A stretch of DNA of 54,851 nucleotides, the filler included, from Bipalium vagum (lineage: Eukaryota): assembly GCA_037834085.1 (NCBI GenBank). It is 3 parts of 3 records of this genome, joined end to end, with 100 filler letters (N's around TTAATTAATTAA, not from the genome) between each part and the next. Parts side by side here need not be neighbours in the genome. Positions count along the whole stretch, not along the records: positions 20,884 to 37,544 come from JBBMKC010100133.1; 2 more parts are not named here. One strand, given 5' to 3'. Within the stretch, counting starts at the first letter, position 1, and each line of letters begins with the position of its first letter. The notes under the pieces are model-generated. The model ran no database searches. It was not told the DNA's origin and worked only from the letters and a program-made list of their open reading frames with translations. Both the position numbers and the translations under genes were made by a program. Below, one piece after another: positions 25,901 through 34,900 of the stretch.

Positions 25901-28900
25901 GATTCCAGATATCGCTGACGAATCTCAGGAGAGTTATGACAACTCTCCGAAACAAGTGATCGTCATTGGAAAAATGTAATTTGATATTTGATCTGAACTT
26001 TATATTTTACATTTTATATTTGAATTGATATGCATGAAAAGGCTTCGTAAGACATTATTTTTATTTTTATATCTCTGAAAAATTCGTCCGAATATTTTCT
26101 TGATGATTACTCATTAAAGATTTTGTAATTTTCGGCATTTAAAATATTTATTATTAAAACAATTTTAATTTTATTGTCTTTATTGACTATAATTTTTTTT
26201 ATTACCTTTATTGCCTTTTAAAATGTTTCTTGACTTTATTTACTTTTTGTGGTCCTAATTATTATCAATTTATTATTAATATTTTTTTAAAATCGATAAA
26301 ATAATTTTTTTAAACTTTTTTCCAACTCTCATGTTGCCATGAAGAAATTTCGTTTTAAAAATCGAAAGTAAACAAAATATTTATATATATGGGCTAAAGT
26401 ATCAAATAATATTTTCTTTTTTTCTTGAATTGTCTGAGGAACTATTTTTTTTATTTAAAAAATTAAAAAACGAACCCGATTTCAAGTCAAGCATGTATAC
26501 CATGTTCGAGAAACCTTTTGTCGGGATATCATTAAGTCCACCAATCACGTACACCTGATCGTTTAAAAGAACGCAACTGTTGAATATGTTTCGGTAATCA
26601 CTGGGGACAGCAGGCAAAGAACGCCAGGCTTTGGAACGAAAGTCATAACAGTTACAAAATGCGGAAAACAACTTTCCTTCTCGACCACCTAGATAATATT
26701 TAAGATATAATCAAATCAGCGGGTGATCAATCTCGAACTAACACCTTCAAAAAAGCAAATTCGCTTGATACATGCCAAAATTATCATTCAATATCATTAT
26801 CAACGAGAAAAGTTTCATGTAGTGATCAGTGAGACTAACATAGACAGTTGATTAAGAAAGAGAGGTTGCGCTTTACTTTGTGGTACAATTTAAAAAATTA
26901 TGCTTGTATGTAATCATTACATACTCGTAAAATTTAAAATATGGTCACATTAAAATAACTGGTACAACAATTAATAAAAGTGGTAAAATTAAAGTTATTT
27001 GATGAAATAAAAATATAATTAAACACAATAATAAAAATTAATAAATTAAAAACAACGAATATTTAATCTACCTAAATTTATTTTATGAAATGGGATAATA
27101 TTCCCGTATATATCGCAAAAACTCTTCAAAGCCATCGACACAATTTAAGCACCATTTCCGTCTGGCGAGATATTCGCATAAAGTGGCCTCAAATGCCTCT
27201 TCATTCGGCTGTCGTTTCCGAAACCAATTCTTCATCGGCCGTCTTGATAATAACATAATCCCTAATATCATTGAACCTTGAACTACATGGAGAAGGAGCA
27301 GCAGAGCAATGTGAAATCATCCGACAAACCGGCAGCTTATACTCCCCCCCACCTGAGGAAGCGTGAAGCTGCCAGATGTAACATTTGTTCCCTAAAAGCC
27401 TGTTCGTTCAGTTCAGACGAACAATGATCAGGGGTGGAGACAAGTGACAAATTCTAAGAGGAATTAATCAACTAAGACGAAAATGTCGATTTTTTCAAAA
27501 TAAATTGATTGACTTTTTAAGAAGCGAGGGATTATGTTGTCCAAATCTTGTTTGTTGTCCATTAAGACAACAAATTTTATTAAAACAAAATAATAAATTT
27601 TATATGGTACAATTTATTATTTATAATGTCATCAAAATTTATGTGGTACAAAAATTAAATTACATGATGATTGCGTAATGGTTTTTTAAATTGTACCATA
27701 AAGTAAAGCGCAACCGAAAGAGATAAGACTAAACAAAAACGAAAAGATTGAGGTGAAATTTAGAAATTTTTCGTAATAAACGATTCAGAATCAAAAGAAA
27801 AGACAAATCACGCAAATGAACAGATATTACTAAACTACAATCAATATCATAAACAAAAATAGGAGGAAAATAGATTACGTGTCGAACTGTATGTCTAGTG
27901 TAATTGAAATGTTGAATCCATTGCCGAGCGTTTTCTTAAAATTAATAATTATTTTATTTTCATTTTCGTAATCAATATAAAAATATCTTTCTCTCGCTCT
28001 CAGTATAAAAGTTGTGTTTTTTGACAATTCAGAAACCCGTAACAATGAAAATGGGTTGAAAATTAATTAATTTTATGAAAAAAAACATATAACATTTTCA
28101 ATAATTAAGAATATATTTTTTACTGGTCGGATAATAAAGTCCGTGTTAGCATTACACTTTAAACACAAACAAATTAAGTTGAACTTTATTAATGTAATAA
28201 AAAATGTTTTAAATAATATAATAGTAGATCAAATAATTGAAATTGGTCTAAAGTACAGGGTGTTTCATAAATATTTATACGGGTTTAAACAAATAAGAAT
28301 TAATCAATTTGTCAATGAACATGAATCAATTTCATATATTATTGTAGAGAAATCATTTAAAAAATAAATATTTTACAAAAAGCAATAAATTCGGTTGAAA
28401 ATCAGTTGATTATTTTGCTTTAAAGCCGTATACATATTTAAGAAACAATAAAATTTTTTTAAATATTACAACTTTTAGTGAAAAATTTAAATATGGATAA
28501 AATTCTTGTAAGAGCAATTTATCATTATGAAATCAAAAAACCCATGGAACTGCAAAGGTCAACCGAAATATCAATGGTGCATTCTGTCAGTGAAGAATTA
28601 ATAAGCGTATCATCCGTCGATAATTCCAATGCTTTTGACATGATGACAGTTTTGCTGATGAAAAAGGTTACGGACGTCATCGCAGAATGGTTACAAGTTA
28701 GCCACTCAAGGGTTCTGGATCACCTATACCTATGTCACTTGGGCTATGTGAGAAAGCTTGACAAAGGTATGGCTCACGATTTAAAAGAAAAACAAACAAA
28801 TCGTCGTTTTACTAAGTATGCTCGACCCTTCTTTTGCGAAATATCAACTACTCGATATTACTATCCTTTACTCGAGCACACAGAAAAATGCGACAAAAAA

Positions 28901-31900
28901 TCACATAATTCATGTGGTTTTTCTTTTATATTTTAAGCTAAAAAACATTTTTCTTACATATATTTCTATTTTTCTTCGTTCTGTAAAACCTATTCCCATT
29001 TTCTGGTAAGCTTTCAATACTCCTTCTATTACAGTCTGGGAAGGAAATATCTGGCGAATGCAGTGAATGAATTATTATTTTTTATTAAGGTTCTCAGTTT
29101 CTCTAACGTAATCTTTATAACATGCGGCGTACATTGTCATGATGAAACAGAACCCTTCTCTTAACCAAAGGTGGTTATTTTTCCATTGGTGCCTGGCTAG
29201 AACGATCAAACTGATTACAATTAACATTTCTATTGATGGTTTAAATTGAATTCATTAATTCAAAGTTACCACATTTTTGTCTCCAATTCAAGAACAACTC
29301 AACCGAGAAAGAAGATTAGTACACATTAATTCTTTGCATTAGGTCATTTTCAGAGACTAGAAACTTTATTAATACTTTTCAGGTGCCGATGAATGGAGGA
29401 CTTCATTGAATCCAGTTACATTGTTAGATTTTCAACAGTTACAGTTTCATTCTGCTCATCTGCCACCTTGAATAAATCTTCAACGACTTCCATTAGTTGT
29501 CCAGAGCGATTTGCATCCTGGAGACTGTAGTTTCCGAGTCGACATTTTTCGAACTACCGTTGCTATGGACATACACTAATAGTTGATTTCAAATATATTT
29601 GGCATAAAGTTTTGAAGTTCTGATCACATTTTTATGTTTATTATATTCGTAAAGCAAAATATGACGAATATGAGCCTTCAATAATACCAGTCCAAGTACG
29701 CTAAAAAAATATAAATTTTTAAATCTTACGTTATATTGAAGGCATAATCGATAAGATTCTATCTTATTAAGTAAATGTCGTTGCGAAAATTCCACAGAAT
29801 GAAATATGATATTTTACTTCATCTTCCATATTCTCCTGATTTGTCGACTACTAATTGTCATTTTTTCGAAACTGATTTTTTCATCATGTAAAATGTTCAA
29901 TAACCAAGGCGCTACCGAATGCTTTCCTTCAATTTGTTGAATCCAGCCATATTTTCCACCAACAATTTAATACTCATATTTTTATTTTAAATTCAATGGA
30001 ATAACATACTATTTTTCTAGGTTCATTTTAAAAGTAAAATTTTCTTAAATCGATAAGAAAATAATAAATGAATATTAATGGTTTCCTGTTGACTTTTAAT
30101 GAAAGAAAAAATGTTTTAATAATCAAAAAATTAAAAATTAGAACCCAAAATAGTAAGGATATTGAGTATTACTTTGAAATCAAAAGTTCATTAGATAAGT
30201 TTAATTAAAATACCTGTAGTGAAAGTGGAAAAATAATAATGTTAAATATAATAATTAAAATTATTAATAATATTATACATCATTATAATATAGGATTTTT
30301 GCATAAGTTTTACCGATGAAAACATTTATTTGATGAATTACATGGAAAACAAAGTTTATCAGTGTCTCTCAAATGTTGAAAATAATAAACTTTACTTTTA
30401 AGGCATTTCTGCCAACGATTTGGAAGCTATCTTATTTCAACTGATAAGAATTTATGAGACTTTGAACTAAACCATTTTTTATGTCAACGAGTTCTTCAGA
30501 AGTTTGGTACTTATTTCCATATATTGAAGATTTCATTTGAGAAAATATGTAATAATCAGACATATAAAGATCCGGAGAGTAAGGAGGACGAGGAAGAACT
30601 TTGAACCCAATCTCCAAAAGCTTTTGAGTAATTCTACAAACATGCGGACGTGTATTATCCTGCAAAAAGTGGAACTTTTCAAAACTTCCTAACATTCGTC
30701 GTCCATTTTGTCGAAGAGTTATCCAGCTGAAGATAGTAAATTTCTGAATTTGTTTATATTTTGGAGTGCATCGCATAGCAAGATTCCTTTACAGTCCTAA
30801 AATATTGTGGAGAGATGTTCTCTGGGATTCAGCGATTTTTTAATTGACTTAAATGGATGATCATAAGAAAAATACCACAACCTATTGTGATATGACTTTT
30901 TCCCATTATCCGAATATAACCAAACTTCTAGAGTAATAAGTTGTGAAAGCAAATCGTTACCATTGTACATGGCCAGCAATTCATCACAAAGTCTTGCGCT
31001 ATTTTGTTTGTTTTCTTCCGTAAGAAGATGTGGTAGCTATCTATTTACAAGATATTTCTTCCCCATTTTACGTGAATGTCTAATCAATGTAGCATGATTT
31101 ACATCAAATTCCTCTGCAGTAAATTATTGATGTTTTCTTCAAAGTTATCGATCTTTTAAGAACACTCATTCCGCTCTTTATCTTCGACGTTGAAATCGTT
31201 ATAACATCTTAGAAATTTCTTGCTGAAAGGGTTCCATCTCAAAAAACAAAATTTATCTTCTTAGCAATATCAGGAGTTCTCATTTTTTCCATCCATAAAA
31301 ATATATTAATTTTTTTAAAACTATTCTATCAAATCCAATATCTAAAATAACAAAATATATACATTATGTAATTAATTTTATTTAGATTATAAAAATAAGA
31401 TTTTAAAACAGATATATTGTATTTGATTGGCAATTAAGTCCATTCAGTTTTTTAGAAGACATAAAAACAAATTTTTTATTGATAAAAGCAATCTCAATCA
31501 ATGATGTGTAGTCCATTTTATTAATAACTTCCTTCCACCTGTCTACCAATTTCATTATTCCTCTTTCGTAGAATTCCTAAATTTTATTTTCAAAAAACGA
31601 ATCAAGATGCCTTTTGTGGACTCCTCATTGGTGAAAGTTTTCCCGTTTAAGAAATTCTGCAACGACTGAAATAATTGGTAGTCTCTAAGACCCAAGTCGG
31701 CGGAATATGGTGAATGTGGCAAAAATCCCACCCAAGGCTCGTTAATTCTTTCAGGGTGATCATTGAAATATGAGGCCTGGCATTGTCGTGTTGTAAGACA
31801 ACACCCCTGCGATTTGCCAACTCTGGAAGCCTTTTGTAAATTTAGTTAATTGAAAGCAGTAAACATTTGAATCAATCGCTTTGCCAGAAGGTAACATTGA

Positions 31901-34900
31901 AGATAACACCTTTATAAATACAACCAAACTGAAATTATTCTTTTTCGGATGTAATCCTGCTCTTGGTTTTTTTTTTTGGTGGCTGGGAACTGTGTCCCAA
32001 TGATCTCTTAAGCACTGCATTGTCGTAAGAAACCCATTTTTCATCACCAGTAACCTAGTTGCGTAAAATGGATGTCTTTCTTGCCGTTTTAGGAGCAAAT
32101 CGCAGATTGATATTCGTGCTGGTCTCAGTGAGTACCATACAGTAAGTCGAGAAAGGTAATCAATTTTATTTAAATGTTTTTCGACAGATTTATGTGATAT
32201 TTTAAGTCTCGTAACTATTTCCCGAACCGTCTGAGTTGGATTATAATAAGAATAAGACTAAAATTTTGAAACAGCGAAGAATTATAAAACTAAGTTATTA
32301 TATTTTAATAACTTAACAAATTTATCGGAAAAGACTTATGCAACAAACCTATATTTATTTCTTAATTTATTTATCTATCTTATATGAATACTTATCATTA
32401 ATATTAAAAAATTCCTACCTATAACATAAAGATTGTCGTTATACAAAAACGAACCAGCACTGAAATGGGAAGTTGGCATAGGTGGAAGTTCTTGCCAGTT
32501 TCCAACTTTCAAATCAAGCATTCCAAAATTTTTAAGAGTTACCATATCAGTAGTAAGGCCACCGCCACAATAAATAACATTATCTAAATAATAAAAATAA
32601 TAATTATTATAATGTTCAATTTCAAATTTCAAGCCAAAAAATAATAAAAAATAGTCATTAATAAATAATAATTTTTAAAGATGTAACCATGACAAAGATT
32701 TACCTCTGTTAACCACAATAGATCCTTGTGCAGGATTGGAAAGAGAAGGTGCTTGCGTCCACGAGTCAGAAGTAATATCGTAAATGTCAACTTTGTCCAG
32801 CTGCCGCTGCTTGTCATAAATTCCTCCAATAGTGACTATCTTCTCATCTGAAATAAAAATCAATGTCCATAAAATCGATTTTAACTTTGATTATTTGAAC
32901 CGCAAAAACAAAATGATGTATCAATCATCAAGTTACAAAGAATTTCAAAACCATTTTGAGATTGACGTCCACATGTTAACAACTTCCCATAGTAAAACAG
33001 TTAATATTTATGTAAAAATCTCTAGAGAAGCATAAATTTTACAAAGAAAGCTTTAGAATAGTGTGCGCTTTGTCGAAAATAAACGTATCACATAAATACA
33101 TCCTGTCATCAAATAAATTTGTTAGCTTATGAGAAACTCAAACATCGAACCTTTTTACATATTTCAGCTTCTTTAAATGATCATAAACAGTTGAATTATC
33201 GATATTCTATATTTCTACAATGTCGTCTAATGAGGATTTCCATCAACTATCGCCATTCTTTTAGCAACTTTGAACAACCATCCTGATCAAGGTCGTTAAT
33301 ATCAAAATCAACTTTATGAAATTTCTAGAACCACCGATGACATTGATGTTATTTGACACTTTATTCACCAAGCTTGAAGTGCGTATTTCTCTTTGCGAAA
33401 AAAATAATAAAACATTTAAAAAGCATATTTTCAGCTTCCATTTCAAATTGTAGCTAAATGTGCGAAAATTAAAAGAAAAAATTTTCCAAACCATAGATTT
33501 ATATCCACTCATTAATAATACACAAATAAAAAATTGTAAATTAAAATGATTTCACAAAATTAAACTAATAGATGTATGCATAAGTATTAAACCATTTTAA
33601 TCATTGTTTAAATAAATCAACAAATTATCAAAAAACCCCGTTAATTTAAATTTCGTTATTTATATTGTATATTTATTGAAAAGTAAATATTGCCCTTTAA
33701 TTGTTATAGAATATCAAAAAATTTTGGATTTAGAAATGAGTGACCAAAATATATACTATCGACATCGTATCAGATATTATTTTCAGCAAGGAAAAAGAGT
33801 TTTTGCATCATCTCAATCCATATTCTCTGTTCTAGGAGAGAAGGCTATCTGGTATAGTACATATAAATATTGGTATCGCCGATTTAAAGACTGGAATTTG
33901 ATGTAAACAATCTACTACGAACCCTGAGAAATTAGAAAAGCTACTCTGTGAGAATACTGCCCAAACACAAGAACTTGAGAAACATTTTGGAATCGACCAA
34001 GAAAGCAGTCATAGATTAAAAAAATTCAGAAGATTTGAATGAACTCTCAGAAATCGTCGCTTCTTGCTAGACAAAGAAAGACTTTGCGGCAAATCGTCAC
34101 TGGAGATGAAAAGTGGATTGCTTACGAAAATCTAAAGCGCATTCAATTTTTGGTAGACCTCGGTATACCAGCAACTTGAACCTCAAAAGTAAATATTCAC
34201 AGAAAAAATGCTCCTTTAAATGTGGTGGGACATGAGAGATTCAATTTATGATGATCTTCTCCAGATTGGCAACAACCATTAATTCAGAGCGTTACAGAAA
34301 ACAGTTGTTTCAATTGGGTTAAAAAATAAAGAAAAAAACCTTTTCAGGTTGAGAAGTTCTTCCTCGTGCAGCTATCTTATTCCCCGGATCTAGATCCTAC
34401 AGATTACCATTTGTTACGATCAATGCAACACTTTTTAGCAGGACATTGTTTCAAAAATGTTTCTGAGACTCAAGAATTTCTAGATAATTTCTTTGCTTCA
34501 AAACCTATCGTTCGGGAATTCGTCAATTACCTTAAAGATTGGAAAAAGTGCTGGACAGCAACGGATCTTACTTTGCTGATTGATTTTTGTATCTATGCTG
34601 TGTAAAACTAACTTTATTAGCTATTTTATCTAAATATTTAACCGTTAAAAATAGGCCTAATATTTCAATCTGATATGAGAATGTGTAACGGCTTTTTCAA
34701 CAACTTGATATTTAAATTTTAATATACTGCTGATTTCGGTTACGAAGAATATATATGGATCACATTTTATCCATTTTTTATTCCTTGTGTTTTTTATAAT
34801 GTTTATCCGATCTAATTCATAATAAAAACTAAAAAACATTGACTTAATGCTGAACAAATTTACTAATTTGTTTATTTTACTAATTAATCAATTATTCTAA

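What the first reader, a model, noticed from the sequence alone, without database searches (positions are those of the whole stretch)
26864..27715. Merlin transposon carrying an apparently captured, intron-containing gene fragment (Pack-type capture)
Seen: intact 34-bp TIRs and an 8-bp TSD enclose a Merlin-like transposase C-terminus on minus (~27242-27083) and a possible N-terminal stub (MDNKQDLDNIIPRF from ~27562). The catalytic middle is missing. In its place, on the opposite strand, is a GC-rich ~180-bp segment. Removing a 34-nt GT..CAG interval (27378-27411) gives an open 48-aa peptide, MEKEQQSNVKSSDKPAAYTPPHLRKREAARFQTNNDQGWRQVTNSKRN*. Known: YxPPHLR is the eIF4E-binding-type motif at the N-terminus of DDX3/Ded1/PL10 helicases, and eIF3a C-terminal tails often end in a DxxGWxxV-basic motif. 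Gene capture is well known for Pack-MULE, CACTA and Helitron elements; I know of little such description for Merlin. Inference: DNA-level capture of part of a translation-factor gene. It lies antisense within a KLHDC8 intron and could yield a decoy micropeptide or small RNAs against the donor gene.
Basis: partly seen in the sequence, partly recalled or inferred. Interest (0 to 1): 0.72.

Follow-up and report, generated by a model that had tools for sequence, protein, structure and literature searches.

The report
Jumping DNA carrying spliced mRNA copy
A cut-and-paste jumping gene (Merlin family) in this animal genome carries a short piece of the host's eIF3a translation-factor gene with both introns precisely missing, so the piece was most likely copied from messenger RNA into a DNA break and then spread to at least 12 places, where it appears to be decaying without function.

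Summary
The element is real: 34-nt TIRs, an 8-nt TSD and a Merlin (IS1595-type) backbone. The donor is eIF3a (G000:C257126), not DDX3. It has two introns (55 and 44 nt) in the captured stretch, and both are precisely absent from the element, so the 257-nt cargo is a spliced-mRNA copy. The proposed 34-nt intron is donor exon sequence; an 8-bp deletion private to this copy creates the illusion. The 'N-terminal stub' is mid-transposase. Twelve copies share the cargo at different sites with different TSDs, so it was amplified by transposition after one capture. Junctions show no TSD, no poly(A), a 12-bp target deletion, 2-nt microhomology, a 7-nt filler and an adjacent snap-back inversion. This fits repair of a break with a reverse-transcribed product (inferred). 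Copies decay neutrally; 2 of 12 keep the full frame. No RNA holder was listed. Closest precedent: Helitron-amplified retrogenes in bats; the animal Pack-TIR survey filtered out intronless cargo. Eight paper searches found no Merlin or multicopy TIR-transposon case.

The parts
26856..26863 (.). Left target-site duplication, 8 nt
   Evidence: identical to 27716-27723
26864..26897 (.). TIR at the 3' end of the transposase sense; begins GG
27083..27243 (-). Remnant of the last transposase exon, downstream of the catalytic Glu (lost)
   Evidence: aligns to the last exon of longer copies L018/L023/L019; no Pfam hit on its own
27244..27252 (.). About 9-nt junction sequence; here 187 nt of transposase (second Asp, an intron, the Glu) are deleted relative to empty copy L013
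27253..27276 (+). 24-nt inverted copy of adjacent transposase sequence (snap-back type insertion, primed at a 7-nt inverted repeat)
   Evidence: the 7-bp stem is predicted in the empty copy
27270..27289 (-). 20 nt of native transposase; its antisense strand supplies the ATG at 27287-27289; last 2 nt are microhomology with the donor
27288..27519 (+). Intronless copy of the 3' end of eIF3a mRNA: 45 + 99 + 113 nt of the last three exons (60 codons, stop at 27465-27467, 72 nt of 3' UTR); this copy has private 8-bp and 20-bp deletions
   Evidence: 3.1% substitutions against donor exons
27335..27336 (+). Exon-exon junction 1 (55-nt donor intron C257126:6930-6984 absent)
27379..27380 (+). Site of the copy-specific 8-bp deletion that frameshifts the cargo and suggested the false intron
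27426..27427 (+). Exon-exon junction 2 (44-nt donor intron C257126:6787-6830 absent)
27499..27504 (+). AATAAA; the cargo ends 15 nt after it (likely the donor's poly(A) site)
   Evidence: 5.6% of positions in this stretch have such a hexamer 10-30 nt upstream
27520..27526 (.). 7-nt filler of unknown origin; 12 nt of transposase deleted at the insertion point; no poly(A), no TSD
27527..27575 (-).
27682..27715 (.). TIR at the 5' end of the transposase sense; begins GG
27716..27723 (.). Right target-site duplication
26689..32418 (-). Host intron (5,730 nt, GT..AG, phase 1) of a kelch-repeat gene; the element ends 175 nt from the acceptor; cargo is antisense to the host transcript

Best explanation
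This is a non-autonomous Merlin transposon whose middle holds an intron-free copy of the last 257 nt of the host eIF3a message, most likely patched in by repair of a DNA break with a reverse-transcribed product and then spread by ordinary cut-and-paste mobilisation. Steps: (1) SHOWN: a deletion derivative lacking ~710 nt of transposase existed; L013 is an empty example. (2) INFERRED: a break inside such an element was repaired by end joining with snap-back synthesis, leaving a 24-nt inverted copy and a 187-nt deletion. (3) SHOWN: spliced eIF3a sequence sits antisense to the transposase with a 12-bp target deletion, 2-nt microhomology at its 5' end and a 7-nt filler at its 3' end. INFERRED: reverse transcription began at the mRNA 3' end and stopped after ~260 nt, and the product was joined without LINE endonuclease. 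Steps 2 and 3 may be one event, or the palindrome from step 2 may have broken again. (4) SHOWN: at least 12 copies sit at different sites; INFERRED: moved in trans by the family's transposase. (5) INFERRED: the cargo is a passenger decaying neutrally.
For: Donor is the only non-element match among 13 of 13 candidates scored and is eIF3a (PF22591 E=9e-88; PDB eIF3a E=6e-134). Junction 1 is spliced in 12 of 12 copies, junction 2 in 11 of the 11 that reach it. Both introns are GT..AG, AT-rich and contain stops if unspliced. A paralogue (67% identical over 300 aa) has a phase-1 intron two codons from intron 1, so that intron predates the capture. Cargo ends 15 nt after AATAAA (chance 5.6%) and is 5'-truncated. 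Copies share the breakpoints, a 3-nt insertion (11 of 11 covering it) and one substitution (9 of 10 covering it) against the donor: one origin. Six copies with both TIRs have six different TSDs, four exact. 7 of 7 exact snap-back junctions lie in cargo copies. Reverse transcriptase is plentiful: 150 of 150 scored matches pass the RVT_1 cut-off. Junction features match RT-product-mediated repair in mouse zygotes (PMC4516963) and snap-back SD-MMEJ (PMC5728401). Neutrality: 52 nonsynonymous to 22 synonymous distinct changes, expected fraction 0.74, p=0.28; 2 of 12 copies keep the full 62-codon frame.
Against: No RNA data show the donor's splicing or poly(A) site directly. The assembly is fragmented (272,664 contigs), so a free retrocopy that served as a DNA template could be missing. 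Intron 1 has a 4-nt repeat at its two ends, so its loss alone could be a DNA deletion; intron 2 has only 1 nt. No snap-back copy without cargo was found, so the order of steps 2 and 3 is open. The 194-column tree is a star and does not group cargo copies; it neither supports nor rejects one origin. With 74 changes the neutrality test has little power (raw pN/pS 0.67-0.75). Which enzyme made the cDNA is unknown.
Confidence: 0.62

Rival explanations
1. Ordinary LINE-driven retroposition put an eIF3a processed pseudogene into a Merlin element; a later small deletion removed the poly(A) tail and one target-site repeat before amplification.
For: 3' end at a likely poly(A) site with 5' truncation; many open RT frames in the genome; this route is documented for bat Helitrons (PMC4224331).
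Against: No copy has a poly(A) tract or a TSD around the cargo; 12 target bases are lost rather than duplicated. It needs a second event that trims exactly to the cleavage site.
Confidence: 0.2
2. A free processed pseudogene of eIF3a arose elsewhere first; the Merlin element copied part of it at DNA level during gap repair (Pack-TIR mechanism).
For: 2-nt microhomology equals the median for Pack-TIR breakpoints (PMC8277862). The cargo differs from the donor by one shared substitution and a 3-nt insertion. Capture of existing retrogenes is known for Helitrons.
Against: No free copy among 13 DNA candidates or 16 protein candidates (donor and paralogue only). Contig depth over the donor's upstream exon is flat (weak, not a copy number).
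Confidence: 0.14
3. One reading: DNA-level capture of an intron-containing gene fragment that is spliced to give a 48-aa decoy peptide.
For: A GT..AG interval can be drawn in this copy that restores the frame.
Against: The interval is donor exon (41% GC against 16% and 27% for the real introns); the real introns are absent; the frameshift is private to this copy.
Confidence: 0.02
4. Whatever its origin, the cargo is functional: antisense RNA from host introns or an eIF3a-tail peptide modulates the donor.
For: The junction ATG is in frame with the eIF3a tail and the poly(A) signal is kept; this copy is antisense inside a host intron; copies are 93-98% identical to the donor.
Against: 10 of 12 copies lack the full frame; substitutions are neutral-like; this copy is frameshifted.
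Confidence: 0.07

Closest known systems
Helitron-amplified nested retrogenes in Myotis bats (Thomas et al. 2014, PMC4224331; passages read)
   Same: A spliced, 5'-truncated mRNA copy lands inside a DNA transposon, which then amplifies it; empty relatives exist. The authors call theirs the first such report for any DNA transposon.
   Different: Carrier is a rolling-circle Helitron and those inserts have poly(A) and TSDs of LINE-1 retroposition. Here the carrier is a cut-and-paste TIR element and the insert has neither.
Pack-TIRs in animals (Tan et al. 2021, PMC8277862; passages read)
   Same: TIR element with a host gene fragment replacing internal sequence, short microhomology, some multicopy.
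   Different: DNA-level duplications; the pipeline discarded intronless captures from multi-exon genes. 'Merlin' occurs 0 times in the main text (supplements not read). One ARF6 retrogene in MER20 is noted as ambiguous.
[quoted passage not shown] 2015, PMC4516963; passages read)
   Same: Partial spliced mRNA copies in a break, no poly(A), short microhomology.
   Different: Induced CRISPR breaks in mouse zygotes and cells; single events, not amplified by a transposon.
Merlin superfamily, DDE_Tnp_IS1595 (Lopes et al. 2021, PMC8101967; passages read)
   Same: TIRs of 24-462 bp beginning GG, 8-9-bp TSD, PF12762 domain in longer copies.
   Different: This copy is non-autonomous with host cargo; no host-gene cargo is described in the passages seen.
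Turtle REP-21 CPB, a PIF/Harbinger element with an internal CR1 fragment (bioRxiv 10.1101/2021.11.26.470093; passage read)
   Same: A retro-derived insert amplified by a TIR transposon.
   Different: The insert is a LINE fragment, not a host mRNA.

Membership tests
Merlin (IS1595/IS1016-like) DNA transposon | TIRs of 24-462 bp starting 5'-GG | tested here: met
   34-nt TIRs, both begin GG; definition from PMC8101967
Merlin (IS1595/IS1016-like) DNA transposon | 8- or 9-bp TSD | tested here: met
   exact 8 nt here and in 3 other cargo copies; near-exact in 2
Merlin (IS1595/IS1016-like) DNA transposon | DDE_Tnp_IS1595 transposase with D, D, E (family level) | tested here: met
   PF12762 above cut-off in L018 (36.3 bits) and L023 (30.2; cut-off 27); triad read in translations. 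The window copy itself has lost all three residues.
Pack-TIR / Pack-MULE (DNA-level capture) | Host fragment between TIRs with TSD | tested here: met
Pack-TIR / Pack-MULE (DNA-level capture) | Cargo colinear with genomic DNA (introns kept) | tested here: not met
   both donor introns absent; such cases were excluded in PMC8277862
Retrocopy (processed pseudogene) | Precise loss of introns | tested here: met
   2 of 2 introns
Canonical LINE (TPRT) retrocopy | Poly(A) tail | tested here: not met
   at most one extra A, then a 7-nt filler
Canonical LINE (TPRT) retrocopy | TSD flanking the insert | tested here: not met
   12-bp deletion against empty copy L013
RT-product-mediated / endonuclease-independent break repair | Spliced insert, no tail, no TSD, microhomology or filler at joints | tested here: met
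   features from PMC4516963
RT-product-mediated / endonuclease-independent break repair | Direct copying from RNA or cDNA, with no chromosomal intermediate | tested here: inconclusive
   no free retrocopy found, but the assembly is fragmented
DDX3/Ded1/PL10 N-terminus | Cargo derives from a DEAD-box helicase gene | tested here: not met
   donor is eIF3a
Functional retrogene or micropeptide | Purifying selection and conserved frame | tested here: not met
   2 of 12 full frames; p=0.28 for a nonsynonymous deficit (low power)
Functional retrogene or micropeptide | Expression | not testable with these tools
   no RNA holder listed

The most novel reading that the evidence does not exclude
Cut-and-paste transposons trap mRNA: breaks made inside an element (by transposase or by a snap-back hairpin) are repaired directly with reverse-transcribed host message, and the patched element amplifies the retrocopy. 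This would be a natural germline record of RT-product break repair with its junctions preserved in 12 replicates, and the first Merlin and apparently first multicopy TIR case in the papers searched, of a class that Pack-TIR screens filter out by design.
Probability: 0.4. Interest if true: 0.65.

Novelty: new variant of a known kind. Interest (0 to 1): 0.5.

Why it matters
Gene capture by TIR transposons is treated as a DNA-level process, and the main animal survey discarded intronless cargo (PMC8277862). This locus shows an RNA-level route into a TIR element followed by amplification. Donor, empty precursor and 12 replicate copies lie in one genome, so the junctions can be read base by base. 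It suggests re-screening genomes for TIR elements with spliced cargo to measure how often breaks inside transposons are patched with cDNA. There is no sign that the cargo does anything for the host, which limits the importance.

Tried and rejected
The 34-nt intron: rejected. N-terminal stub: rejected. DDX3/PL10 donor: rejected. Cargo as ordinary Merlin sequence: rejected; longer copies have transposase there. Other cargos: none seen in 17 non-cargo loci, no unmatched internal gap over about 80 nt, some loci partial; one search scored only 40 of 105 candidates, so this is not a census. Snap-back copies without cargo: none among 7 exact matches (exact matches only). Recent intron gain in the donor: unlikely for intron 1 (paralogue shares it); not tested for intron 2, which the paralogue lacks. 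Tree of the shared transposase exon: star-like, uninformative; 22 rows, dropping L021 (same element as L010) and loci with under 140 aligned nt. Expression: no RNA holder listed; the one run laid is an unlabelled contig set that may be the assembly's own source and is not independent support. KLHDC8 orthology: not resolved. Rice retrogenes inside MULEs (Wang et al. 2006): recalled only; the paper is not held, so a plant TIR precedent is not excluded.

Full report
OBSERVATION. The window holds 34-nt inverted repeats at 26864-26897 and 27682-27715 (97% complementary) and an exact 8-nt duplication on both sides. The 852-nt element is G000:C100133:5981-6832. The same search gave 115 matches from 40 of 105 candidates scored. 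Two longer relatives (L018, 1,477 nt; L023, 1,468 nt) encode an interrupted transposase that passes the Pfam DDE_Tnp_IS1595 cut-off and shows the D, D, E residues in translation. TIR length, GG ends and TSD size fit the Merlin definition in PMC8101967 (passages). The window copy has lost all three catalytic residues.

THE CARGO. A search with window 27292-27527 scored 13 of 13 candidates: 12 are Merlin copies (this one included) and one is a gene on C257126, matched in three pieces. That gene is eIF3a (PF22591, E=9e-88; PDB eIF3a chains, E=6e-134). Its best named homologues are flatworm proteins at only 38-40% identity, so the host is an animal, probably a flatworm; I did not go further. The gaps between the pieces are two GT..AG introns of 55 and 44 nt (27% and 16% GC) with stop codons if unspliced. 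Splicing both gives a tail ending in a DxxGWxxV-basic motif like those at the ends of P0002 and P0005. The elements lack both introns exactly: junction 1 in 12 of 12 copies, junction 2 in 11 of the 11 that reach it (L006 is cut by its contig end; L009 passes the junction by 3 nt). The cargo is 45 + 99 + 113 = 257 nt: 60 codons, the stop and 72 nt of 3' UTR. Copies differ from the donor exons by 2.4-6.7% substitutions, this copy by 3.1%. A second eIF3a gene (C94777, 67% identical over the 300 aa searched) has a phase-1 intron two codons from intron 1 and lacks intron 2, so intron 1 is older than the capture. Intron 1 has a 4-nt terminal repeat that could allow a precise DNA deletion, but intron 2 does not; exact loss of both points to a spliced template.

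THE FALSE INTRON. The interval 27378-27411 lies in the donor's penultimate exon. Ten of the 11 other copies have 8 more bases at 27379 (L011 has a larger deletion), and with them the frame needs no splicing. Unspliced, this copy reads 46 codons into a wrong frame. The ATG at 27287 comes from the antisense strand of the transposase, sharing two bases with the donor.

JUNCTIONS. L013 (772 nt) has the same ~710-nt internal deletion as the cargo copies but native sequence where they carry cargo, so it represents the empty precursor. Read along the transposase, the cargo copies show: native sequence, a 7-nt filler, the cargo antisense from its 3' end, 2-nt microhomology, 20 nt of native sequence (12 nt lost at the insertion point), a 24-nt inverted copy of the neighbouring sequence, about 9 further bases, and a 187-nt deletion. 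The inverted copy starts at a 7-nt inverted repeat predicted to pair in the empty element (z=-2.8 for the 111-nt region, which also holds a second hairpin). This is the snap-back signature described for synthesis-dependent microhomology-mediated end joining (PMC5728401, passages). All 7 exact matches to this junction are in cargo copies. The cargo ends 15 nt after an AATAAA; 5.6% of positions in this stretch have such a hexamer 10-30 nt upstream. There is no poly(A) tract and no TSD around the cargo.

AMPLIFICATION AND FATE. Six cargo copies have both TIRs detectable, with six different TSDs: four exact, one with a mismatch, one with a 1-nt indel; the other six show one TIR, five of them cut by contig ends. 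Shared breakpoints, a 3-nt insertion and one substitution against the donor show a single capture. The tree of the shared transposase exon is a star with cargo and empty copies interleaved: uninformative on one origin, consistent with capture during the family's main burst. Distinct coding changes are 52 nonsynonymous and 22 synonymous against an expected fraction of 0.74 (p=0.28); two copies keep the full 62-codon frame, one keeps 58 codons, nine are broken earlier or lack the ATG. This copy lies in a 5,730-nt intron of a kelch-repeat gene, 175 nt from the acceptor, with the cargo antisense to the host transcript. Expression could not be tested.

MECHANISM. Shown: spliced cargo, single origin, insertion into a deletion derivative, different insertion sites. 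Inferred: a break inside the element was patched with cDNA begun at the mRNA 3' end, without LINE endonuclease, in the same episode as the snap-back deletion or after the resulting palindrome broke (0.62). Reverse transcriptase is plentiful (150 of 150 scored matches over the RVT_1 cut-off, from 5,450 candidates). A function for the cargo is a separate question (0.07).

COMPARISON. It works like the bat Helitrons that amplified nested retrogenes (PMC4224331, passages), but the carrier is a TIR element and the LINE hallmarks are absent. Its junctions resemble RT-product-mediated repair at CRISPR breaks (PMC4516963, passages). It fails the Pack-TIR test on intron retention; that survey discarded intronless cargo and its main text does not mention Merlin (PMC8277862, passages; supplements not read and may list further families). 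A TIR element amplifying a LINE fragment is described in turtle (bioRxiv 10.1101/2021.11.26.470093, passage). Passages of PMC5861414 and PMC13317346 gave no TIR case. Eight searches (listings only, apart from the papers named) turned up no Merlin capture and no multicopy TIR family with a host retrocopy. The library lacks most subscription papers, and I recall rice retrogenes inside MULEs from a paper that is not held, so priority is not established. The DDX3 eIF4E-binding reading of the YxPPHLR motif is recalled, not tested.

VERDICT. A real, well-resolved new variant: a Merlin subfamily carrying a processed eIF3a fragment. Mechanistically informative, probably functionless. Interest 0.5.

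Noticed in passing
L046 (G000:C257126 minus) and L057 (G000:C94777 plus): The genome has two eIF3a genes, 67% identical over 300 aa. Their C-terminal tails are otherwise dissimilar, but both keep a YxPPHLRK motif just after a shared intron; the motif resembles the DDX3 N-terminal motif (recalled).
   Followed up: partly
L023:389-1856, L018:1501-2977: The Merlin transposase gene of this family appears to be split by three short introns, and its N-terminal part has a Cys/His pattern with no Pfam match. No intact autonomous copy was seen.
   Followed up: partly
L015:1501-2204: A family member with an extra internal TIR at about 1801-1833, possibly a tandem or nested arrangement.
   Followed up: no
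window 25467-25880, 29390-31850 and 33800-34600: Several decayed Tc1/mariner-like transposase fragments (read by eye from translations) lie in and around the introns of the kelch gene.
   Followed up: no
window 28463-28933 (+): A 157-codon open frame inside the host intron with no Pfam match.
   Followed up: partly
cargo copies L001-L012 against donor: The copies have each drifted about 4% while their shared state differs from today's donor by one substitution and one 3-nt indel; changes are mostly G>A and C>T (41 of 90), only 10 at CpG.
   Followed up: partly
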